DNA of 64,000 nt, from the NCBI RefSeq assembly GCF_017348835.2, contig NZ_CP071375.1. One strand, 5' to 3'. A program made the position numbers. The DNA is from Escherichia coli. Lineage in GTDB: Bacteria; Pseudomonadota; Gammaproteobacteria; Enterobacterales; Enterobacteriaceae. Positions 35,501 to 41,500 of this stretch are shown one piece after another; within the stretch, counting starts at the first letter, position 1; every line of letters starts with the position of its first letter.

Positions 35501-38500
35501 CGATCAGTCAGGCTCGTCTTACAGTTACTACGCCGATGATATCGTTATATCCCTATATCATTAGCAATGTGCTTTATATTTTGCCGTTATCTATTATTCT
35601 TTCTTTTATTCTCTATTTCTTATGGCAGCACTGGATGTCACGGAAAATGTCGCTGGCAGAAGAAATTAAAAAAGGAATGTCATCCGGAGAATTTTCTGTG
35701 CATTATCAACCAGTGTGCGACACGACAACCAAAGCGTGTCTGGGGGTTGAAGCGTTAATGCGCTGGCAACGCGAAGATGGTAAAAATATATCTCCGGTAG
35801 TTTTTATCCGCGCTGCAGAAGAGGAAAATTTAATAATACCGTTAACTAAATATCTCTTTGAACTGATTATTCAGGATGTACAAAGCTGGAAAGTGAAAAA
35901 ACCGTTTCACCTTGGGATAAATATTGCCGCGGAACATCTTGCACATCCTGACTTTGTTGGTGATGTTTTACATATTAAAAATGCAATATCTGATAAATTT
36001 AATATTGTCCTTGAGATTACCGAACGCAATCTGGTTGAAGACACTGATCTTGCATTACAGAAAATAAATGAATTAAGGATCCATGGCTGTGAATTTGCAG
36101 TCGATGATTTTGGCACGGGATATTGTTCCCTTGGCCTTCTGCAAAAGTTGTCTGTTGATTATCTTAAAATAGATAAAAGCTTTATAGACACACTCACTAC
36201 AGCGGAAGACGAAACGCCAGTTTTAGATATTATTATTAAGCTGAGTAATCGACTCAATTTGATAACGATTGCAGAAGGTGTCAGTACTCCTCACCAGGCA
36301 GAATATCTTATTCATAATAACGTGACATTAGTTCAGGGATACTTATATGCAAAACCAATGAAAGCGACAGAGTTTTATCAGTGGTATGTAAACAGATAAA
36401 TAATTAAAAATATTGGAATGGTTTTGTATTGTTTTAAAATATAAACAAAGCAATCAGAATGCTATTAACTGGTGACAAACGCCAGGATCAACAATGCTGT
36501 TAGTGAGTAATACATATGAATCGTGGTGTCCTGCCTGTAGAGAATACGTAGTTATAATCATTTTGACGCGTAACATAATAATTAATTGAAGTGTCTGCTT
36601 TTATGAAGAAATCAGAAGTGATATTTTCAAGGATTTCATCGCTGATGTTATCATCTTTTTGTATTTTTTGGATTTTAACTGTGGTGAGATAAACGGTATC
36701 ACGGAATTTCTTGTATGTAAAACTCACATATCGGCGGATGAAGCCCATCTTTTTTCCATCTACCGTGTATGCGCCCGTGAGATACATGTTTCCTGTGTTA
36801 TTTTCAGAAATCATATTTAACGAAAAATATTGATCCATTTTTGTATGATCGGTGAAATTAATAACATGGGCATTACATGATATGTTTTGCTCTGCTGGTT
36901 CATTGGAATGATGAAACGCAATATGGCTCAGAATTGCTGCAATAAAAGCACATAAAATTATTCCCGCAAACAGAAAATATCTTTGAGTCATATGATTACT
37001 CCGCTTTATAATAGAGAGAATTGCAATTATTTGGTGATTCAGAGTTTAACATTTGACTACAGGTGAAAGCATAAAACCCGCTCATGCTATCATTTGTTGC
37101 AATGTAAACGTAAGGATGTATTTTGCAGTTGACTTCCATTTTCTGCAATTTTTCAATAATCGGCGATAGCATGTCTACGGAATTAAAGTATTTATTATCA
37201 TAGAAATAACTGCATCCTTCCTGAGTAGGGTGTTGAGCATAATTTGAGAAAGCATCTATTTTTTTTATAGTGTGGGATTTGCTTTGAAAAGCCATATCGA
37301 AAAAATAAGAAGATATATACACTATCCCCCATGCTGCAAAAAAAGAAACTATAAGCAATGTATTCTTTGTGGTAAATATACCTTTTGCAACGTGATTTTT
37401 ATTTATATTTTCAGTATGGGTGCCATTCTCTTCACTCTCAACACTTTCATTCTCATTGTGATTATTGTCGAGAACAGTTATGTTGATTTCTTCATTGATT
37501 TTGAAGCCTTTACGTGGCACCGTTCTGATAACATCATTAAATATCGTCGCTGAGCTGATTTCACGAAAGGAACGCCTTATCATCGATATATTTTGATATA
37601 AAGTGTTGGTTGCGACTTCGGCACTGCTATCGCTCCAGACTTTTTCAAAGAATTGATTGTGTGACACGACACTATAAGCGTTATCTAAAAGTAACTTTAA
37701 GCATTTTCCCGCAGGATAAGTGAGTATCACTTCCTCTGATGTAAGGAGTGATGTTAACTTATTAGATGATGAGTTGAATCTTACTTCATCATTTATAATG
37801 TAGATCATTACATTTTATACCTTAGTTGTGTATTACAAATCCAGTATTACTCAGAAAATAAAGGCAAGAACATTAAGTGCACTATAGTATAATTTCCTAA
37901 AAATGCAAATGTGAATTATCTGATTTTTAAGAATAATCTTGATTTAATTGAAATTCTTAAACGATGTATATTTCTATTAAATGCTTTCTGCAGTGATGTG
38001 AATTAGGGGTTTTCTGCATGTACTGATAGAAACTGCGTATCCCCGTTATAGGGAAAGAACGGGTCGCATCCTCCACCCAAGACACTAACCGTGTGATTGG
38101 TAGTTCCCTGCTGTGCACTTCTGGTGAAATAGAAGAAGCTCTATGCGCCGACCGATGCTGTCTTTTATCCGATTATTTGCCAGTGACACCTTGATATGAG
38201 GTTATGTCTATTATTGCTAGGAGGTAATATATGCTTATGTTATTATCCAAAGCGCTAATAGTAATTTAGATAAAGATTATAAATCAGCAAGCAAATCCAG
38301 CCTGTTTTTTTGTGCGTACTGCATAACATCTATGATGACTATATTATTACGTGATACATCACTACTTAAATGTATATAAGATTTGATGTTTATTATTCAT
38401 GCTGAGTTTTAACGTTTATATTTTTTTATTGATATCTAAAAATTACTTAAATTATCCCTTAAATATTACTTACTCATAAGGAGCAATGTGTGATATGAGC

Positions 38501-41500
38501 TTTTCTATTGAAGATTTTTCATTGGATTTTTTTTCATTACATAACAAGGTGGCCATCGTAACTGGGGCCGCGGGTGAACTGGGGAGAGGCTTATGCTCGG
38601 CTCTGGCCAAAGCAGGGGCTAATCTGTTGTTGGTAGACATCAAAGAGCCTGATAATAAATATTTAAAGCATTTAACTCATGAAGGCGTTGAAGTTGAGTT
38701 TATGACAATTGACATAACAAAACCTGATGCAGCATGTACCATTATTAATAGGTGTCTGGAGCGTTTCGGTCAGTTAGATATTCTGGTCAATAACGCGGGC
38801 GTGTGTAACATTAATCGTCCTATCGATTTCAATCGAAACGACTGGGATCCGATGATTAATCTCAACCTGAATGCTGCATTCGATATGAGCCAGGCCGCAT
38901 TGAATATATTTGTCCCGCAAAGAAAAGGGAAAATTATTAATATGTGTTCCGTATTGTCATTTCATGGTGGACGTTGGTCGCCAGGGTATGCGGCGACTAA
39001 ACATGCTTTAGCGGGGCTGACCAAAGCGTATGCCGATGATTTTGCGGAATATAATATTCAGATTAATGGTATCGCCCCAGGATATTATGTGAGTGAAATG
39101 ACCGCTATTATTTATAATAACCCTAAAATAAAAGAGTTAATAAAAGGGCGTATACCGGCTCAACGCTGGGGAAGGGCACAGGATCTTATGGGCGCAATGG
39201 TGTTCCTCGCCAGTGCCGCTTCAGATTATGTCAATGGACAACTATTAGTCATTGATGGTGGATATTCAATTCGTTAACGATTTTTGGCTGCGTTGAGGTG
39301 TTTTGACTGGAAAATGGAGTGGAGAGATTTTGTCATTTCTCCACTTCCGGTACTTCAGGTGGGTATAGTGGTTATTCGTTAGCGTTGAACCATCGCGATG
39401 AGTTTACATACCACTCAGAGCATTATTGCGCTAATTGTTGCTTTATCTGTGCACCATTATCATCGAGATATGTCGCAGTAACGATCCCACTAACGTTATT
39501 ACTTGCTAACCAGTACCGTCGTTGACTGAAGGGTTTTATCATCATATCGCTTTCTTGCTGCACCTTTGTAGTCCCAATGCTGATGGAGGTGAAAGAGATA
39601 TTCAGTGGTGTTGGGTTATTAAGCTCAATATAGCTGCTGCTGCCGTCGTTACCCAAATGCCAACTTATTTTACGCATAGCTTCTTCAGGTGTCATAGTTA
39701 CAGATTTAGGTCTGTAAAAGACTTTAAGTTGCGTATTCATTGCCAGCGTTAAATGTGTGGGATCTTGATGGGGAGTTTCTGGCGGCATTTCATAAAGATT
39801 TAACCAGAATGCAGATTCGCGATCCTGGGGAAGTGGGTCATGATTATAGATTATCCGCAATCCCTGTGTTCGTCTCGCAGCCAGGCGGAAAACCGGTGGC
39901 AGCACCACAAAGGGGGGAGAAGCAGCTTCTGGGGAACCTTCACCATTATCTACCCAACTTTGCACCAGTACCGGGTAGTCATTGGTATTGACCAACATCA
40001 GCGTCTTTTCCCGATCGCCATCGCGATAAATCATCCGTGAAGAAGCCGGCATGATGCCGGCTTCCACTGACTGTACGAACAAGACGGTTAAGAGCAGCAA
40101 AACGGATTTCATTGCATTTTCACCAATATATAAGCCGTTGCCCGCACTTTTCCCGCACTGACTGTCTGATTTGGCAGTTTCTTCAACCGGGCGATAAAAG
40201 AGTAACTATAGCTGGAGTATCCGGGGTGAGTCGCACCTTCTAATGTTGCCCCTTCAAATACAGGATACCACCCCGCTGCATTTCCTCCGGGGGTTAACTT
40301 CGCGATGCCCGGTTGACCAACCAGCGTCATCGCCGTATCGGGGTGAGCACTGTTAGAAATGTAGATCCCAACGCCCTTTGCCATCTCTACTGCGTCATAA
40401 TTATCAGAGACCAGGGCGCTGACGCCGCCGTTGCTATTGATAATCCCCAGTTTTTGCGCCGCTGTATATGCACCTTCAGACACCTGGATTCCTAATGCTG
40501 TCTGAGTATCGCTAATCCCTGATTGAACCGAGTTACTACACTCGACGCGGACATTAAAATTACCGGTACTTTCCATGCCCGCATTCAGTTGTGCTTCTGC
40601 AATTGTCGGTAGCAATACTAACGGCGTGGCGCTGCGGGCAACGCAGGTGGCATTGTTGTAGAGTCGATTTGCCGATCGCATTCCGTAACCAAAACCATTA
40701 TCAGCCCCCCAGAAATCCCAATGAACAGAACTATCTTCGCCGGGCTCATCATGACCAAATAAAATGCCGCTGGTACCGGAAAGCTGAATATAGGCATTGG
40801 GCTGAACACAGTTATAGATTGTACCGGAAGGTTTTGCGAATCCGACTCCACTACCATCTGTATTATTATTACCGCACCAACTTGTTGTTGCTGATGTATC
40901 AGGTAGTGTACTGATGCGATAAAGCTCAGCATGAAGAGGAGGGATATCCTGTAAGCGGATCTGGATTTTAGTTCCCTGAGTGGCATAACTGGTGATGGGC
41001 ACTTTCTTCCAGTAACGACCAAGCGTCACGCCCGCCATGGTCTGTTTGAGACCGACAAAAGCGAACCAGGTGGCATAGACATCACTCAAACCATCAGGCC
41101 CGCCTGCATCATAAAAGCCCCCCACGCGGTCGTCGCCATTGGTAGCGACCAGAAAATAGATGTTTGGCAAATCTGTTGCATCACATTCCCACAATACGGA
41201 GCTTCCTGTCGCGCCACCTGATGTGTAGTTAGTGGGAGGTACGACCGTTGTCGCGAGGAGTGAACCTGCTGGCGCAAAATAGGTGTCGGTCATATTAATT
41301 TTTCCGAACTCAATAAGCGCTGTCCGACCATCTTCAGTTTGACCTATCTGTGTGTTTGTACAGTTAGCCCAGGCGGATGATTGTATTAGTGCCACCAATA
41401 TGATGGAGCTAATCAGAATGTGTAAAAAAGTCGATTTAGACATCGGGTTTTCTCTGTATCAAGACTGACAGGTTTCATTCAGGCGGATGATAGGGCTATT

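What the first reader, a model, noticed from the sequence alone, without database searches (positions are those of the whole stretch)
38495..39277. Orphan SDR oxidoreductase between the ToxRS-like pair and the fimbrial operon
A stand-alone KduD/FabG-like dehydrogenase with its own RBS sits divergent from the ToxR-like regulator. It may be a regulated target of that regulator or a leftover from a lost sugar-acid utilisation operon.
Basis: inference. Interest (0 to 1): 0.25.

Follow-up and report, generated by a model that had tools for sequence, protein, structure and literature searches.

The report
Island-borne YgcW-like dehydrogenase gene (Z1533)
This is a real, intact but ordinary short-chain dehydrogenase gene, already annotated as Z1533 in the O157:H7 island OI-47; in other bacteria it stays linked to a neighbouring lipid-synthesis gene cluster rather than to the regulator beside it.

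Summary
Window 38495-39277 (+) is an intact 260-aa short-chain dehydrogenase/reductase (SDR) gene (Pfam E 1e-52) with its own conserved ribosome-binding site. It is divergent from a ToxR-like regulator and convergent with a fimbrial operon.

The window is E. coli O-island 47. The regulator is the characterised GrvA with its FidL-like partner, and the SDR is Z1533, a "putative oxidoreductase".

The protein belongs to a small clade sister to the core E. coli protein YgcW (about 56% identity) in the KduD/gluconate-dehydrogenase group. It scores below every curated KduD and FabG cut-off. The catalytic residues are intact, but the glycine motif is changed (TGAAGELG). Selection is strongly purifying, so it is not a decaying leftover.

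Orthologues exist in two other hosts. One keeps the E. coli order. In a Serratia relative, the gene follows the last gene of the same two-partner-secretion plus lipid cluster, with no GrvA and no fimbriae. More distant copies of that cluster lack it.

In published RNA-seq, Z1533 stays low in 11 conditions while grvA varies about 15-fold.

Substrate and role remain unknown. A link to the lipid cluster is the best-supported reading, but only weakly. Interest is low.

The parts
38495..39277 (+). SDR gene (Z1533 of OI-47; presumably ECs1275), 260 aa. Features: TGAAGELG glycine motif (residues 23-30), Asp48 at the end of beta-2, NNAG at 99-102, catalytic N124/S152/Y165/K169.
   Evidence: ORF and annotation; Pfam and NCBIfam; alignment A1; Z-number and product name from the PMC4048457 supplement.
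38478..38483 (+). Ribosome-binding site AAGGAG, 11 nt upstream of the ATG.
   Evidence: Sequence; the AAGG-N(11-12)-ATG pattern is conserved in L005 and Serratia-type L003.
37809..38494 (.). 686-bp AT-rich (about 34% GC) divergent intergenic region between grvA and the SDR. The promoters of both genes must lie here. It presumably holds the obsolete ORF Z1532, though its coordinates were not checked.
   Evidence: Sequence and composition. The consensus scan finds only grvA-side candidates at 37915-37881 (-) and none convincing for the SDR. No Rfam match. Not conserved in orthologous loci. Z1532 is transcriptionally silent in 11 conditions.
39315..39349 (.). Stem-loop with a core of about 14 pairs (GUGGAGAGA...UCUCUCCAC) between the convergent SDR and fimbrial chaperone genes. 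Candidate bidirectional terminator.
   Evidence: Fold of 39278-39422: -45.9 kcal/mol, z = -2.98 on the + strand. U-tracts are weak, and the terminator scan did not call it.
36996..37808 (-). grvA (Z1531/ECs1274), a membrane-bound ToxR-family regulator. Divergent neighbour.
   Evidence: Pfam Trans_reg_C; identified from the literature.
36500..36991 (-). FidL/YqeJ-like lipocalin partner of GrvA (Z1530/ECs1273).
   Evidence: YqeJ_C Pfam hit on the orthologue; RefSeq name 'FidL-like protein'; PMC9214523.
39423..46047 (-). Chaperone-usher fimbrial operon (the locus listed as ECs1276-1281), convergent with the SDR. Genes: chaperone 39423-40112, 444-aa tip protein 40109-41443, usher 41459-43981 (amber codon at 43331-43333 in this strain), second chaperone ORF 44034-44756, major subunit 44821-45381, 207-aa protein 45424-46047.
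47440..64000 (+). Two-partner secretion pair (FHA-like 47440-51252; ShlB-like 51341-52960) followed by a type II FAS/PKS-like lipid cluster. Cluster genes: acpS 52976-53344, FabG/CylG-like about 53358-54119, FabZ-like 54123-54671, ACP 54693-54974, GcvT-family aminomethyltransferase 55010-56170, KS-KS didomain 56244-58802, KS about 58807-60030, hypothetical 60027-60980, ABC ATPase about 60991-61698, hypothetical 61682-62338, FtsX permease 62339-63649. By reference to the annotated Santai genome, the cluster continues past the window end with a LolA-like gene, a hypothetical gene, MCAT and ycdU. This is the only gene set that accompanies the SDR in every host examined.

Best explanation
The ORF is a functional gene for a classical-fold, probably NAD(H)-preferring, short-chain dehydrogenase/reductase. 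The enzyme would oxidise a secondary alcohol or reduce a ketone through the Asn124-Ser152-Tyr165-Lys169 tetrad.

It belongs to a small clade sister to YgcW, within the KduD / gluconate-5-dehydrogenase / DhuD group that acts on hydroxy- and keto-sugar acids. Its cofactor loop and substrate loop are remodelled, so its substrate probably differs from that of YgcW.

In E. coli it is monocistronic and weakly expressed, with its own RBS. It is gene Z1533 of O-island 47.

Its only constant genetic partner across hosts and rearrangements is the two-partner-secretion plus enoyl-reductase-less type II FAS/PKS-like lipid cluster of that island. The most likely role is therefore an accessory redox step connected to that module, for example on a polar head-group, precursor or product. 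It is probably not a GrvA-controlled gene or a catabolic remnant.

Shown: gene integrity, family placement, motifs, purifying selection, synteny patterns and low expression. Inferred: NAD preference, substrate class and the functional link to the lipid cluster.

Roughly 0.9 confidence that it is a functional SDR enzyme of this clade, and roughly 0.35 that its role is tied to the lipid/TPS module.
For: Family placement:
- Pfam and NCBIfam matches.
- Best solved relative is KduD 4z9y, E 2e-58, 41% identity.
- The AF2 model (pLDDT 75.5, pTM 0.80) has KduD, DhuD and gluconate-5-dehydrogenase as top Foldseek neighbours, TM 0.75-0.82.
- The catalytic tetrad, NNAG and PG motifs are invariant.

Distinct clade:
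- P0001-P0004 plus the intermediates P0006 and P0007 form a monophyletic group sister to 112 YgcW-family proteins. Identity is 56% to them, against 75% among them.
- The TGA[AS]GELG motif occurs only in this clade, in 6 of 120 top homologues.

Selection:
- dN is about 0.11 with saturated dS between lineages; within E. coli dN/dS is 0.08.

Synteny:
- E. coli and L005/L006 have fidL-grvA | SDR | fimbriae | TPS+cluster.
- The Serratia cf. fonticola loci have TPS, the cluster, a ycdU-like gene, then the SDR 130 bp downstream on the same strand. No predicted structure lies between them, and there is no grvAB or fimbrial operon.
- SDR divergence (80-82% aa) falls within the range of the cluster proteins (66-89%).

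Distribution and expression:
- In E. coli genomes, the SDR is in 400-401, grvAB in 410 and KS-KS in 382 of 5426.
- It is transcribed at a low level in all 11 conditions.
Against: - The link to the lipid cluster rests on only three island lineages, so shared ancestry or hitch-hiking could explain it.
- More distant copies of the TPS+cluster module lack the SDR: the Enterobacter bugandensis plasmid, the Rahnella plasmid and Klebsiella aerogenes.
- The cluster has its own FabG/CylG-like ketoreductase, only 27% identical to this SDR.
- The intermediate relatives P0006 and P0007 sit alone on short contigs; on its one informative contig P0007 lies next to tpiA.
- Glu in place of the second motif glycine could impair cofactor binding.
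- No substrate or phenotype data exist.
Confidence: 0.4

Rival explanations
1. Independent passenger enzyme. The SDR is a self-contained metabolic or detoxifying reductase that sits at module junctions of a mosaic island. It has no functional tie to GrvA, the fimbriae or the lipid cluster.
For: - It has its own RBS, a long private upstream region, and is monocistronic in E. coli and L005.
- It is absent from most TPS+cluster modules.
- The relatives P0006 and P0007 are stand-alone, the latter beside tpiA.
- Expression is flat and low in 11 conditions.
- In the Serratia-type loci it lies at the very edge of the island.
Against: It has remained linked to the same TPS+cluster module through a rearrangement and in three hosts, with matching divergence. 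In Serratia there is only a 130-bp gap, with no predicted terminator, after ycdU.
Confidence: 0.3
2. First reader, option 1. The SDR is a direct regulatory target of the divergently transcribed ToxR-like regulator (GrvA/FidL), which acts on the shared 686-bp intergenic region.
For: The divergent arrangement with a large shared AT-rich control region occurs in both E. coli and L005/L006. ToxR-family regulators often control adjacent genes; for example, MarT activates misL (cited).
Against: - The Serratia-type orthologue has no grvA/fidL.
- The intergenic DNA is not conserved between E. coli and L005.
- GrvA and FidL are 50-53% identical versus 82% for the SDR.
- grvA rises about 4-fold at pH 9 and with nitrite (13 to 34 and 47) while Z1533 stays at 4-5.
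- The GrvA targets named in the reviews read here are LEE and gad genes.
- The primary grvA-mutant transcriptome (PMC4719443) could not be read.
Confidence: 0.15
3. First reader, option 2. The SDR is the surviving remnant of a lost sugar-acid (KduD-type) utilisation operon.
For: Sequence and fold are closest to KduD, gluconate-5-dehydrogenase and DhuD, which are enzymes of uronate and sugar-acid catabolism.
Against: - Strong purifying selection and intact orthologues in three hosts.
- No isomerase, kinase, aldolase or transporter genes or fragments beside it in any context.
- Scores are below all KduD cut-offs.
- The nearest family, YgcW, lives in a different conserved context with a FAD oxidase, ETF, MFS and FGGY kinase.
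Confidence: 0.05
4. Sensor-coupled steroid or bile-acid dehydrogenase. The SDR modifies the ligand sensed by the GrvA/FidL lipocalin pair, which is homologous to the VtrA/VtrC bile-salt receptor.
For: GrvA/FidL is modelled as a VtrA/VtrC-like co-component receptor (PMC9214523). The gene is adjacent in two hosts. From my own recollection of the literature, not checked here: E. coli KduD has reported activity on steroids, and bacterial hydroxysteroid dehydrogenases are classical SDRs of this size.
Against: No hydroxysteroid-dehydrogenase model or structure ranks near the top. The Serratia-type orthologue lacks the sensor. There is no expression coupling with grvA.
Confidence: 0.05

Closest known systems
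Z1533 (presumably ECs1275), 'putative oxidoreductase' of O-island 47 / S-loop 71 in E. coli O157:H7
   Same: It is the same gene: 98.9% nucleotide and 99.2% protein identity, in the same position between grvA (Z1531) and the fimbrial chaperone (Z1534).
   Different: The window comes from a non-O157:H7 carrier of the island. It is 100% identical to strains such as XH990, Santai O157:H16 and PE164. No function has been published for the gene in the papers searched.
YgcW (E. coli core gene; uncharacterised SDR annotated as a KduD paralogue)
   Same: The nearest populous family, at 53-60% identity. It shares the length, the N-terminal DFSLDFFSL segment, the catalytic tetrad and many invariant residues.
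   Different: It is a sister clade, not nested within YgcW. Other differences:
- The glycine motif is TGAAGELG rather than TGGNSGLG.
- The end of beta-2 reads LLLVD.
- The 198-220 loop differs.
- The conserved ygcU FAD-oxidase / ETF / MFS / FGGY neighbours are missing.
KduD (2-dehydro-3-deoxy-D-gluconate 5-dehydrogenase), e.g. Pectobacterium carotovorum 4z9y/4za2
   Same: It is the best solved relative by sequence (E 2e-58, about 41% identity) and by predicted fold (TM 0.82). It is an NAD-dependent classical SDR.
   Different: Scores are below the curated KduD cut-offs: 296 vs 369, 251 vs 339 and 232 vs 430 bits. There is no kduI/kdgK-type context. The cofactor motif is altered.
FabG / CylG-type 3-oxoacyl-ACP reductases
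   Same: Same superfamily and fold. The neighbouring cluster contains one.
   Different: It is only 27% identical to the cluster's own FabG/CylG-like reductase. It scores below the FabG cut-offs and groups with sugar-acid reductases instead.

Membership tests
Short-chain dehydrogenase/reductase superfamily (classical type) | Rossmann-fold protein of about 250 aa that matches the adh_short profiles | tested here: met
   Pfam adh_short E 2.2e-50 and adh_short_C2 E 2.3e-52 over residues 18-258. The AF2 model has an alternating beta/alpha pattern with pTM 0.80, and Foldseek hits to SDR structures have probability 1.00.
Short-chain dehydrogenase/reductase superfamily (classical type) | Catalytic tetrad Asn-Ser-Tyr-Lys with YxxxK | tested here: met
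   N124, S152, Y165 and K169 (YAATK) are invariant in alignment A1.
Short-chain dehydrogenase/reductase superfamily (classical type) | Canonical cofactor motif TGxxxGxG | tested here: not met
   The sequence is TGAAGELG, i.e. TGxxGxxG spacing with Glu where the second glycine should be. This form occurs in 6 of 120 top homologues; nearly all the rest keep a glycine at that position, most as TGGNxGLG. From general knowledge, this spacing resembles that of extended or intermediate SDRs. Whether cofactor still binds could not be tested.
Short-chain dehydrogenase/reductase superfamily (classical type) | NNAG motif after beta-4 and PG motif after beta-6 | tested here: met
   VNNAG at 98-102 and APGY at 194-197.
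KduD (2-dehydro-3-deoxy-D-gluconate 5-dehydrogenase) equivalog | Score at or above NCBIfam's curated cut-off for the KduD models | tested here: not met
   NF005390 296 bits vs 369; TIGR01832 250.7 vs 338.85; NF006528 232.4 vs 430.
KduD (2-dehydro-3-deoxy-D-gluconate 5-dehydrogenase) equivalog | Pectin/uronate catabolic gene context (kduI, kdgK, kdgA, transporters) | tested here: not met
   No such genes lie within 10-20 kb in E. coli, L005 or the Serratia-type loci.
KduD (2-dehydro-3-deoxy-D-gluconate 5-dehydrogenase) equivalog | NAD-dependent interconversion of KDG and 3-deoxy-D-glycero-2,5-hexodiulosonate | not testable with these tools
   This needs an enzyme assay.
YgcW family | Groups inside the YgcW clade (members are at least 62% and on average 75% identical to each other) | tested here: not met
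   53-60% identity to all 112 members. In a midpoint-rooted neighbour-joining tree the OI-47 clade is the sister group.
YgcW family | Conserved neighbourhood with the FAD-linked oxidase YgcU and with ETF, MFS or FGGY genes | tested here: not met
   Present at L009-L013 for YgcW-family members. Absent at every OI-47-clade locus.
FabG (3-oxoacyl-ACP reductase) | Score at or above the curated FabG cut-offs, or a role as the ketoreductase of a FAS/PKS operon | tested here: not met
   TIGR01830 195.3 bits vs 297.75. The adjacent cluster carries a separate FabG/CylG-like gene that is only 27% identical.
O-island 47 (OI-47 / S-loop 71) gene set of E. coli | Same gene at the same position in the dgcT-ycdU island of O157:H7 | tested here: met
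   98.9% nucleotide identity and identical flanking genes in O157:H7 strain F8952. The gene order Z1530-Z1534 and the product names match. The island is described in PMC8565820 and PMC10877973.
GrvA regulon | Expression depends on GrvA | tested here: inconclusive
   Only indirect evidence is available. Z1533 (values 1-6) does not follow grvA (values 3-47) across 11 RNA-seq conditions. The grvA-mutant transcriptome paper is not held.

The most novel reading that the evidence does not exclude
The SDR is a dedicated accessory enzyme of the uncharacterised two-partner-secretion-linked, enoyl-reductase-less type II FAS/PKS (cyl/aryl-polyene-like) lipid cluster. It was recruited from the YgcW lineage and carries a remodelled cofactor loop. 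It would define a sub-lineage of that cluster (E. coli OI-47, a Serratia relative and one unnamed enterobacterium) that makes a redox-modified product relevant to EHEC surface or host interaction.
Probability: 0.25. Interest if true: 0.45.

Novelty: new member of a known kind. Interest (0 to 1): 0.22.

Why it matters
The gene on its own matters little. It is an annotated, uncharacterised oxidoreductase in a well-known EHEC island.

The useful outcome is a correction of context in four respects:
- The "ToxRS-like pair" is the characterised virulence regulator GrvA with its FidL-like partner.
- The SDR is neither a decaying remnant nor an evident GrvA target.
- Its conserved companion is a large, widely distributed and apparently unstudied secretion-plus-lipid gene cluster.
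- The tail of that cluster survives in E. coli K-12 as ymdE-ycdU.

If the SDR does modify that cluster's product, it would give a simple genetic handle for working out what OI-47 makes. OI-47 deletion is reported to raise type III secretion (review PMC10877973).

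Tried and rejected
- The genome-contig scan with the SDR protein found only an E. 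coli-derived MAG contig and an unrelated 38% hit.
- Exact-sequence look-ups with ORFs translated from L003 failed twice. The route through cluster representatives (P0121) and through the ShlB protein worked.
- The promoter scan found fewer sigma-70-like sites than in shuffled sequence and none convincing for the SDR.
- Rfam found nothing credible in 37700-39500.
- No conserved upstream element exists among five orthologous or related loci, apart from the RBS.
- I looked for sequence remnants that would explain how the E. coli order and the Serratia order are related. This included homology between the 299-aa and 207-aa upstream proteins and the DNA downstream of the SDR. None was found. A circular-permutation scenario was rejected because the Serratia-type island has no fimbrial operon.
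- The contexts of the intermediate relatives P0006 and P0007 were too short to be informative beyond a tpiA neighbour.
- The primary GrvA transcriptome paper (PMC4719443) and the OI-47 fimbrial island paper (PMC1233952) are not held.
- Papers mentioning ygcW give no function.
- No paper was found that describes the lipid cluster.
- The AF2 model is only of medium confidence (pLDDT 75.5; the loops 103-111, 154-161 and 218-225 are below 50). It was used for fold assignment only, not for cofactor or substrate inference.

Full report
OBSERVATION. The window holds an intact ORF on the + strand that ends at 39277. RefSeq annotates the start at 38495, giving 260 aa. This start is supported in two ways. 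The N-termini of all orthologues align to it. An AAGGAG at 38478-38483, followed 11 nt later by ATG, is conserved as AAGG-N(11-12)-ATG in two orthologues whose DNA is otherwise only about 75% identical. The protein matches adh_short_C2 (E 2.3e-52) and adh_short (E 2.2e-50). The gene is divergent from a 270-aa winged-helix regulator (36996-37808, -) across a 686-bp spacer of about 34% GC. It is convergent with a fimbrial chaperone (39423-40112, -). A stable stem-loop at about 39315-39349 lies between the convergent genes.

WHERE THE WINDOW COMES FROM. The region is E. coli accessory DNA between dgcT (ycdT) and ycdU/serX. It is present in 401 of 5426 complete genomes. It is O-island 47 (S-loop 71) of O157:H7. 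The window itself is 100% identical to non-O157:H7 carriers and 98.9% identical to O157:H7. The literature identifies several neighbours:
- The regulator is GrvA (Z1531/ECs1274), a ToxR-family activator of LEE and repressor of gad genes.
- Its partner is a FidL/YqeJ-like lipocalin (ECs1273), part of a VtrA/VtrC-type co-component sensor.
- The fimbrial genes are the locus listed as ECs1276-1281, and the downstream two-partner secretion pair is ECs1282/1283.
- The SDR is Z1533, "putative oxidoreductase". Its Sakai tag is presumably ECs1275, inferred from the flanking numbers.

WHAT KIND OF SDR. The best NCBIfam models are KduD, but all scores fall below the curated cut-offs (296 vs 369, 251 vs 339, 232 vs 430 bits). 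FabG and gluconate-5-dehydrogenase models are also below threshold. The best solved relative is Pectobacterium KduD 4z9y (E 2e-58, about 41% identity). An AF2 model of medium confidence (pLDDT 75.5, pTM 0.80) has KduD, DhuD and gluconate-5-dehydrogenases as nearest folds.

In the 5.8-billion-protein collection, the close relatives are few. Besides the E. coli clusters, they are three clusters at 80-82% identity (P0002-P0004) and two at 62-66% (P0006, P0007). Then comes a very large family at 53-60% identity. That family is YgcW, as shown by its conserved context: a FAD-linked oxidase (YgcU), ETF, MFS and FGGY-kinase genes, located next to eno and queE in E. coli. The match to the annotated ygcW gene in about 4,670 E. 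coli genomes confirms this. In a neighbour-joining tree the six OI-47-type proteins are monophyletic and sister to all 112 YgcW proteins. YgcW members are on average 75% identical to each other but only 56% identical to this clade.

The catalytic N124/S152/Y165/K169, NNAG and PG motifs are invariant. Several other features are specific to the clade:
- The cofactor motif reads TGA[AS]GELG, i.e. TGxxGxxG with Glu replacing the second glycine. It occurs only in this clade. P0006 and P0007 show the intermediates TGGCGGLG and TGANGGFG.
- Beta-2 ends in LLLVD. By general SDR knowledge, an acidic residue there suggests NAD rather than NADP.
- The 198-220 substrate-loop region differs systematically from YgcW.

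No function for YgcW was found in the papers searched.

IS IT A DECAYING LEFTOVER? No. E. coli, L003/L017 and L005 are mutually about 75% identical in DNA, with GC3 of 0.39, 0.31 and 0.50. All three keep a 783-bp ORF. dN is 0.10-0.12 while synonymous sites are saturated. Window versus O157:H7 shows 2 non-synonymous and 7 synonymous changes, dN/dS 0.08. No sugar-acid catabolic genes or fragments flank it anywhere.

WHAT TRAVELS WITH IT. Three kinds of locus were found.
- Class A is E. coli plus L005/L006, an unnamed non-E. coli enterobacterium. The order is fidL-grvA(-), SDR(+), fimbrial operon(-), then the two-partner secretion pair and lipid cluster(+).
- Class B comprises L003/4, L017/18 and L021-23. 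The flanking pyrimidine-nucleoside phosphorylase is 98% identical to that of Serratia fonticola. The order is IS fragments, a 299-aa gene(-), the two-partner secretion pair, the same cluster, a YcdU orthologue (63% identity), and then the SDR 130 bp downstream on the same strand. No significant structure is predicted between ycdU and the SDR. The island ends about 1 kb later. There is no grvAB and no fimbrial operon.
- Class C is more distant copies of the secretion-plus-cluster module: an IS6-flanked copy on an Enterobacter bugandensis IncFII plasmid, a Rahnella plasmid and Klebsiella aerogenes. They end at the ycdU-like gene and have no such SDR.

SDR divergence between classes (80-82% aa) lies within the range for the cluster proteins (66-89%) and the fimbrial proteins (72-89%). 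GrvA and FidL, in contrast, are only 50-53% identical between E. coli and L005. The only gene set common to all SDR-bearing loci is therefore the secretion-plus-lipid module. However, that module usually exists without the SDR, and it carries its own FabG/CylG-like ketoreductase (27% identical to the SDR). Within E. coli the pieces are inherited together: grvAB in 410 genomes, the SDR in 400-401 and KS-KS in 382. Within-species co-occurrence is therefore uninformative.

IS IT A GrvA TARGET? This could not be tested directly, because the grvA-mutant transcriptome paper is not held. The indirect evidence is negative:
- Class B has no regulator.
- The intergenic DNA is not conserved between E. 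coli and L005.
- In Table S4 of the EDL933 eleven-condition RNA-seq study, Z1533 has bracketed expression values of 5, 4, 1, 1, 4, 2, 3, 6, 3, 3, 3. The order is LB, pH 9, pH 4, 15 C, nitrite, antibiotics, solid, minimal, spinach, radish, faeces. grvA (Z1531) has 13, 34, 7, 8, 47, 4, 4, 6, 14, 10, 3.
- A four-fold rise in grvA mRNA thus leaves the SDR unchanged. GrvA activity may depend on signals that were absent from these conditions.

MOST LIKELY MECHANISM. The protein is a functional, probably NAD(H)-linked, alcohol/ketone oxidoreductase of the KduD/YgcW group, with a remodelled cofactor loop and substrate loop. It is expressed weakly from its own start signals. The best-supported role is an accessory redox step connected with the secretion-plus-lipid module of the island. 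Support for this role is weak (about 0.35). The main rival is an unrelated passenger enzyme (about 0.3). Regulation by GrvA (0.15), an operon remnant (0.05) and a bile-acid/steroid role coupled to the GrvA/FidL sensor (0.05) are less likely.

COMPARISON AND NOVELTY. The gene is already annotated and the island is well known, but the enzyme is uncharacterised. It fails the membership tests for KduD, FabG and YgcW proper. It is best filed as a new member, a small sister clade of YgcW, within a known kind of enzyme. It is of low general interest.

SIDE OBSERVATIONS.
- The usher gene carries an amber mutation in this strain.
- K-12 ycdU, and by published annotation ymdE, is the stranded 3' end of the island's lipid cluster.
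- The secretion-plus-cluster module is widespread and apparently unstudied.
- OI-47 is much more widely distributed than the reviews state.

Noticed in passing
window 43331-43333 (- strand), inside the usher gene 41459-43981: The fimbrial usher carries a TGG-to-TAG nonsense mutation (W217*) in the window strain. The gene is intact in Santai O157:H16 and in O157:H7. The OI-47 fimbriae are probably not assembled in this strain, while the SDR next door stays intact.
   Followed up: yes
beyond the window end; L020:4204-5190 (O157:H7), L002:21643-22596, L003:8869-9870: ycdU, an 'orphan' inner-membrane gene of E. coli K-12, is the last gene of the OI-47 lipid cluster. In O157:H7 it overlaps the malonyl-CoA:ACP transacylase gene by 4 bp, and a 63%-identical orthologue holds the same position in the Serratia-type, Enterobacter and Rahnella clusters. 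K-12 ymdE-ycdU therefore looks like the stranded tail of a deleted island. The mastitis-E. coli paper that highlights ymdE-ycdU (PMC4951805) does not make this link in the passages read.
   Followed up: partly
window 47440-64000 and on; L015, L016, L017, L019, L021, L024: A two-partner secretion pair (FHA-like exoprotein plus ShlB-like transporter) is always followed by one conserved gene block:
- acpS, a FabG/CylG-like reductase, a FabZ-like dehydratase and an ACP;
- a GcvT-family aminomethyltransferase, a KS-KS didomain and a further KS;
- an ABC/FtsX/LolA-like exporter, MCAT and YcdU.
No enoyl reductase was seen. The block occurs in E. coli, Serratia, Enterobacter (IS6-flanked on an IncFII plasmid), Rahnella and Klebsiella aerogenes. 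Homologues of its KS protein also occur in Kosakonia, Izhakiella, Aeromonas, Acinetobacter and Neisseria. It resembles cyl/granadaene or aryl-polyene systems. No paper describing it was found.
   Followed up: partly
whole island, window about 34789 onward: OI-47 is described in a 2024 review as exclusive to O157:H7, O55:H7 and O145:H28. It is in fact present in about 400 of 5426 complete E. coli genomes, including human, pig, poultry, mink and wastewater isolates of other types.
   Followed up: partly
window 36500-37808 vs L005:7882-9184: GrvA and its FidL-like partner are only 50-53% identical between E. coli and the L005 host, whereas the flanking SDR (82%) and fimbrial genes (72-89%) are far better conserved. 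This fits the reported fast evolution of these co-component sensor cassettes, or a cassette replacement.
   Followed up: partly
window 37809-38494: The old EDL933 annotation has a hypothetical gene, Z1532, numbered between grvA and the SDR. It has zero reads in all 11 RNA-seq conditions and is no longer annotated by RefSeq. It is probably not a gene. Its exact coordinates were not checked.
   Followed up: partly
L016:12474-13025 (Rahnella plasmid): A tyrosine-type DNA invertase gene (FimB/FimE-like by name) lies just upstream of the two-partner secretion pair. This hints at phase-variable expression of the module in that host.
   Followed up: no
window 33210-36399: The diguanylate cyclase DgcT (MASE4-GGDEF) is directly followed by the island's first gene, a CSS-motif EAL phosphodiesterase. 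I believe this is the published VmpA, but that identification is from memory and was not checked here. The island thus begins with a c-di-GMP degrading enzyme beside a c-di-GMP synthase and the pga biofilm operon.
   Followed up: no
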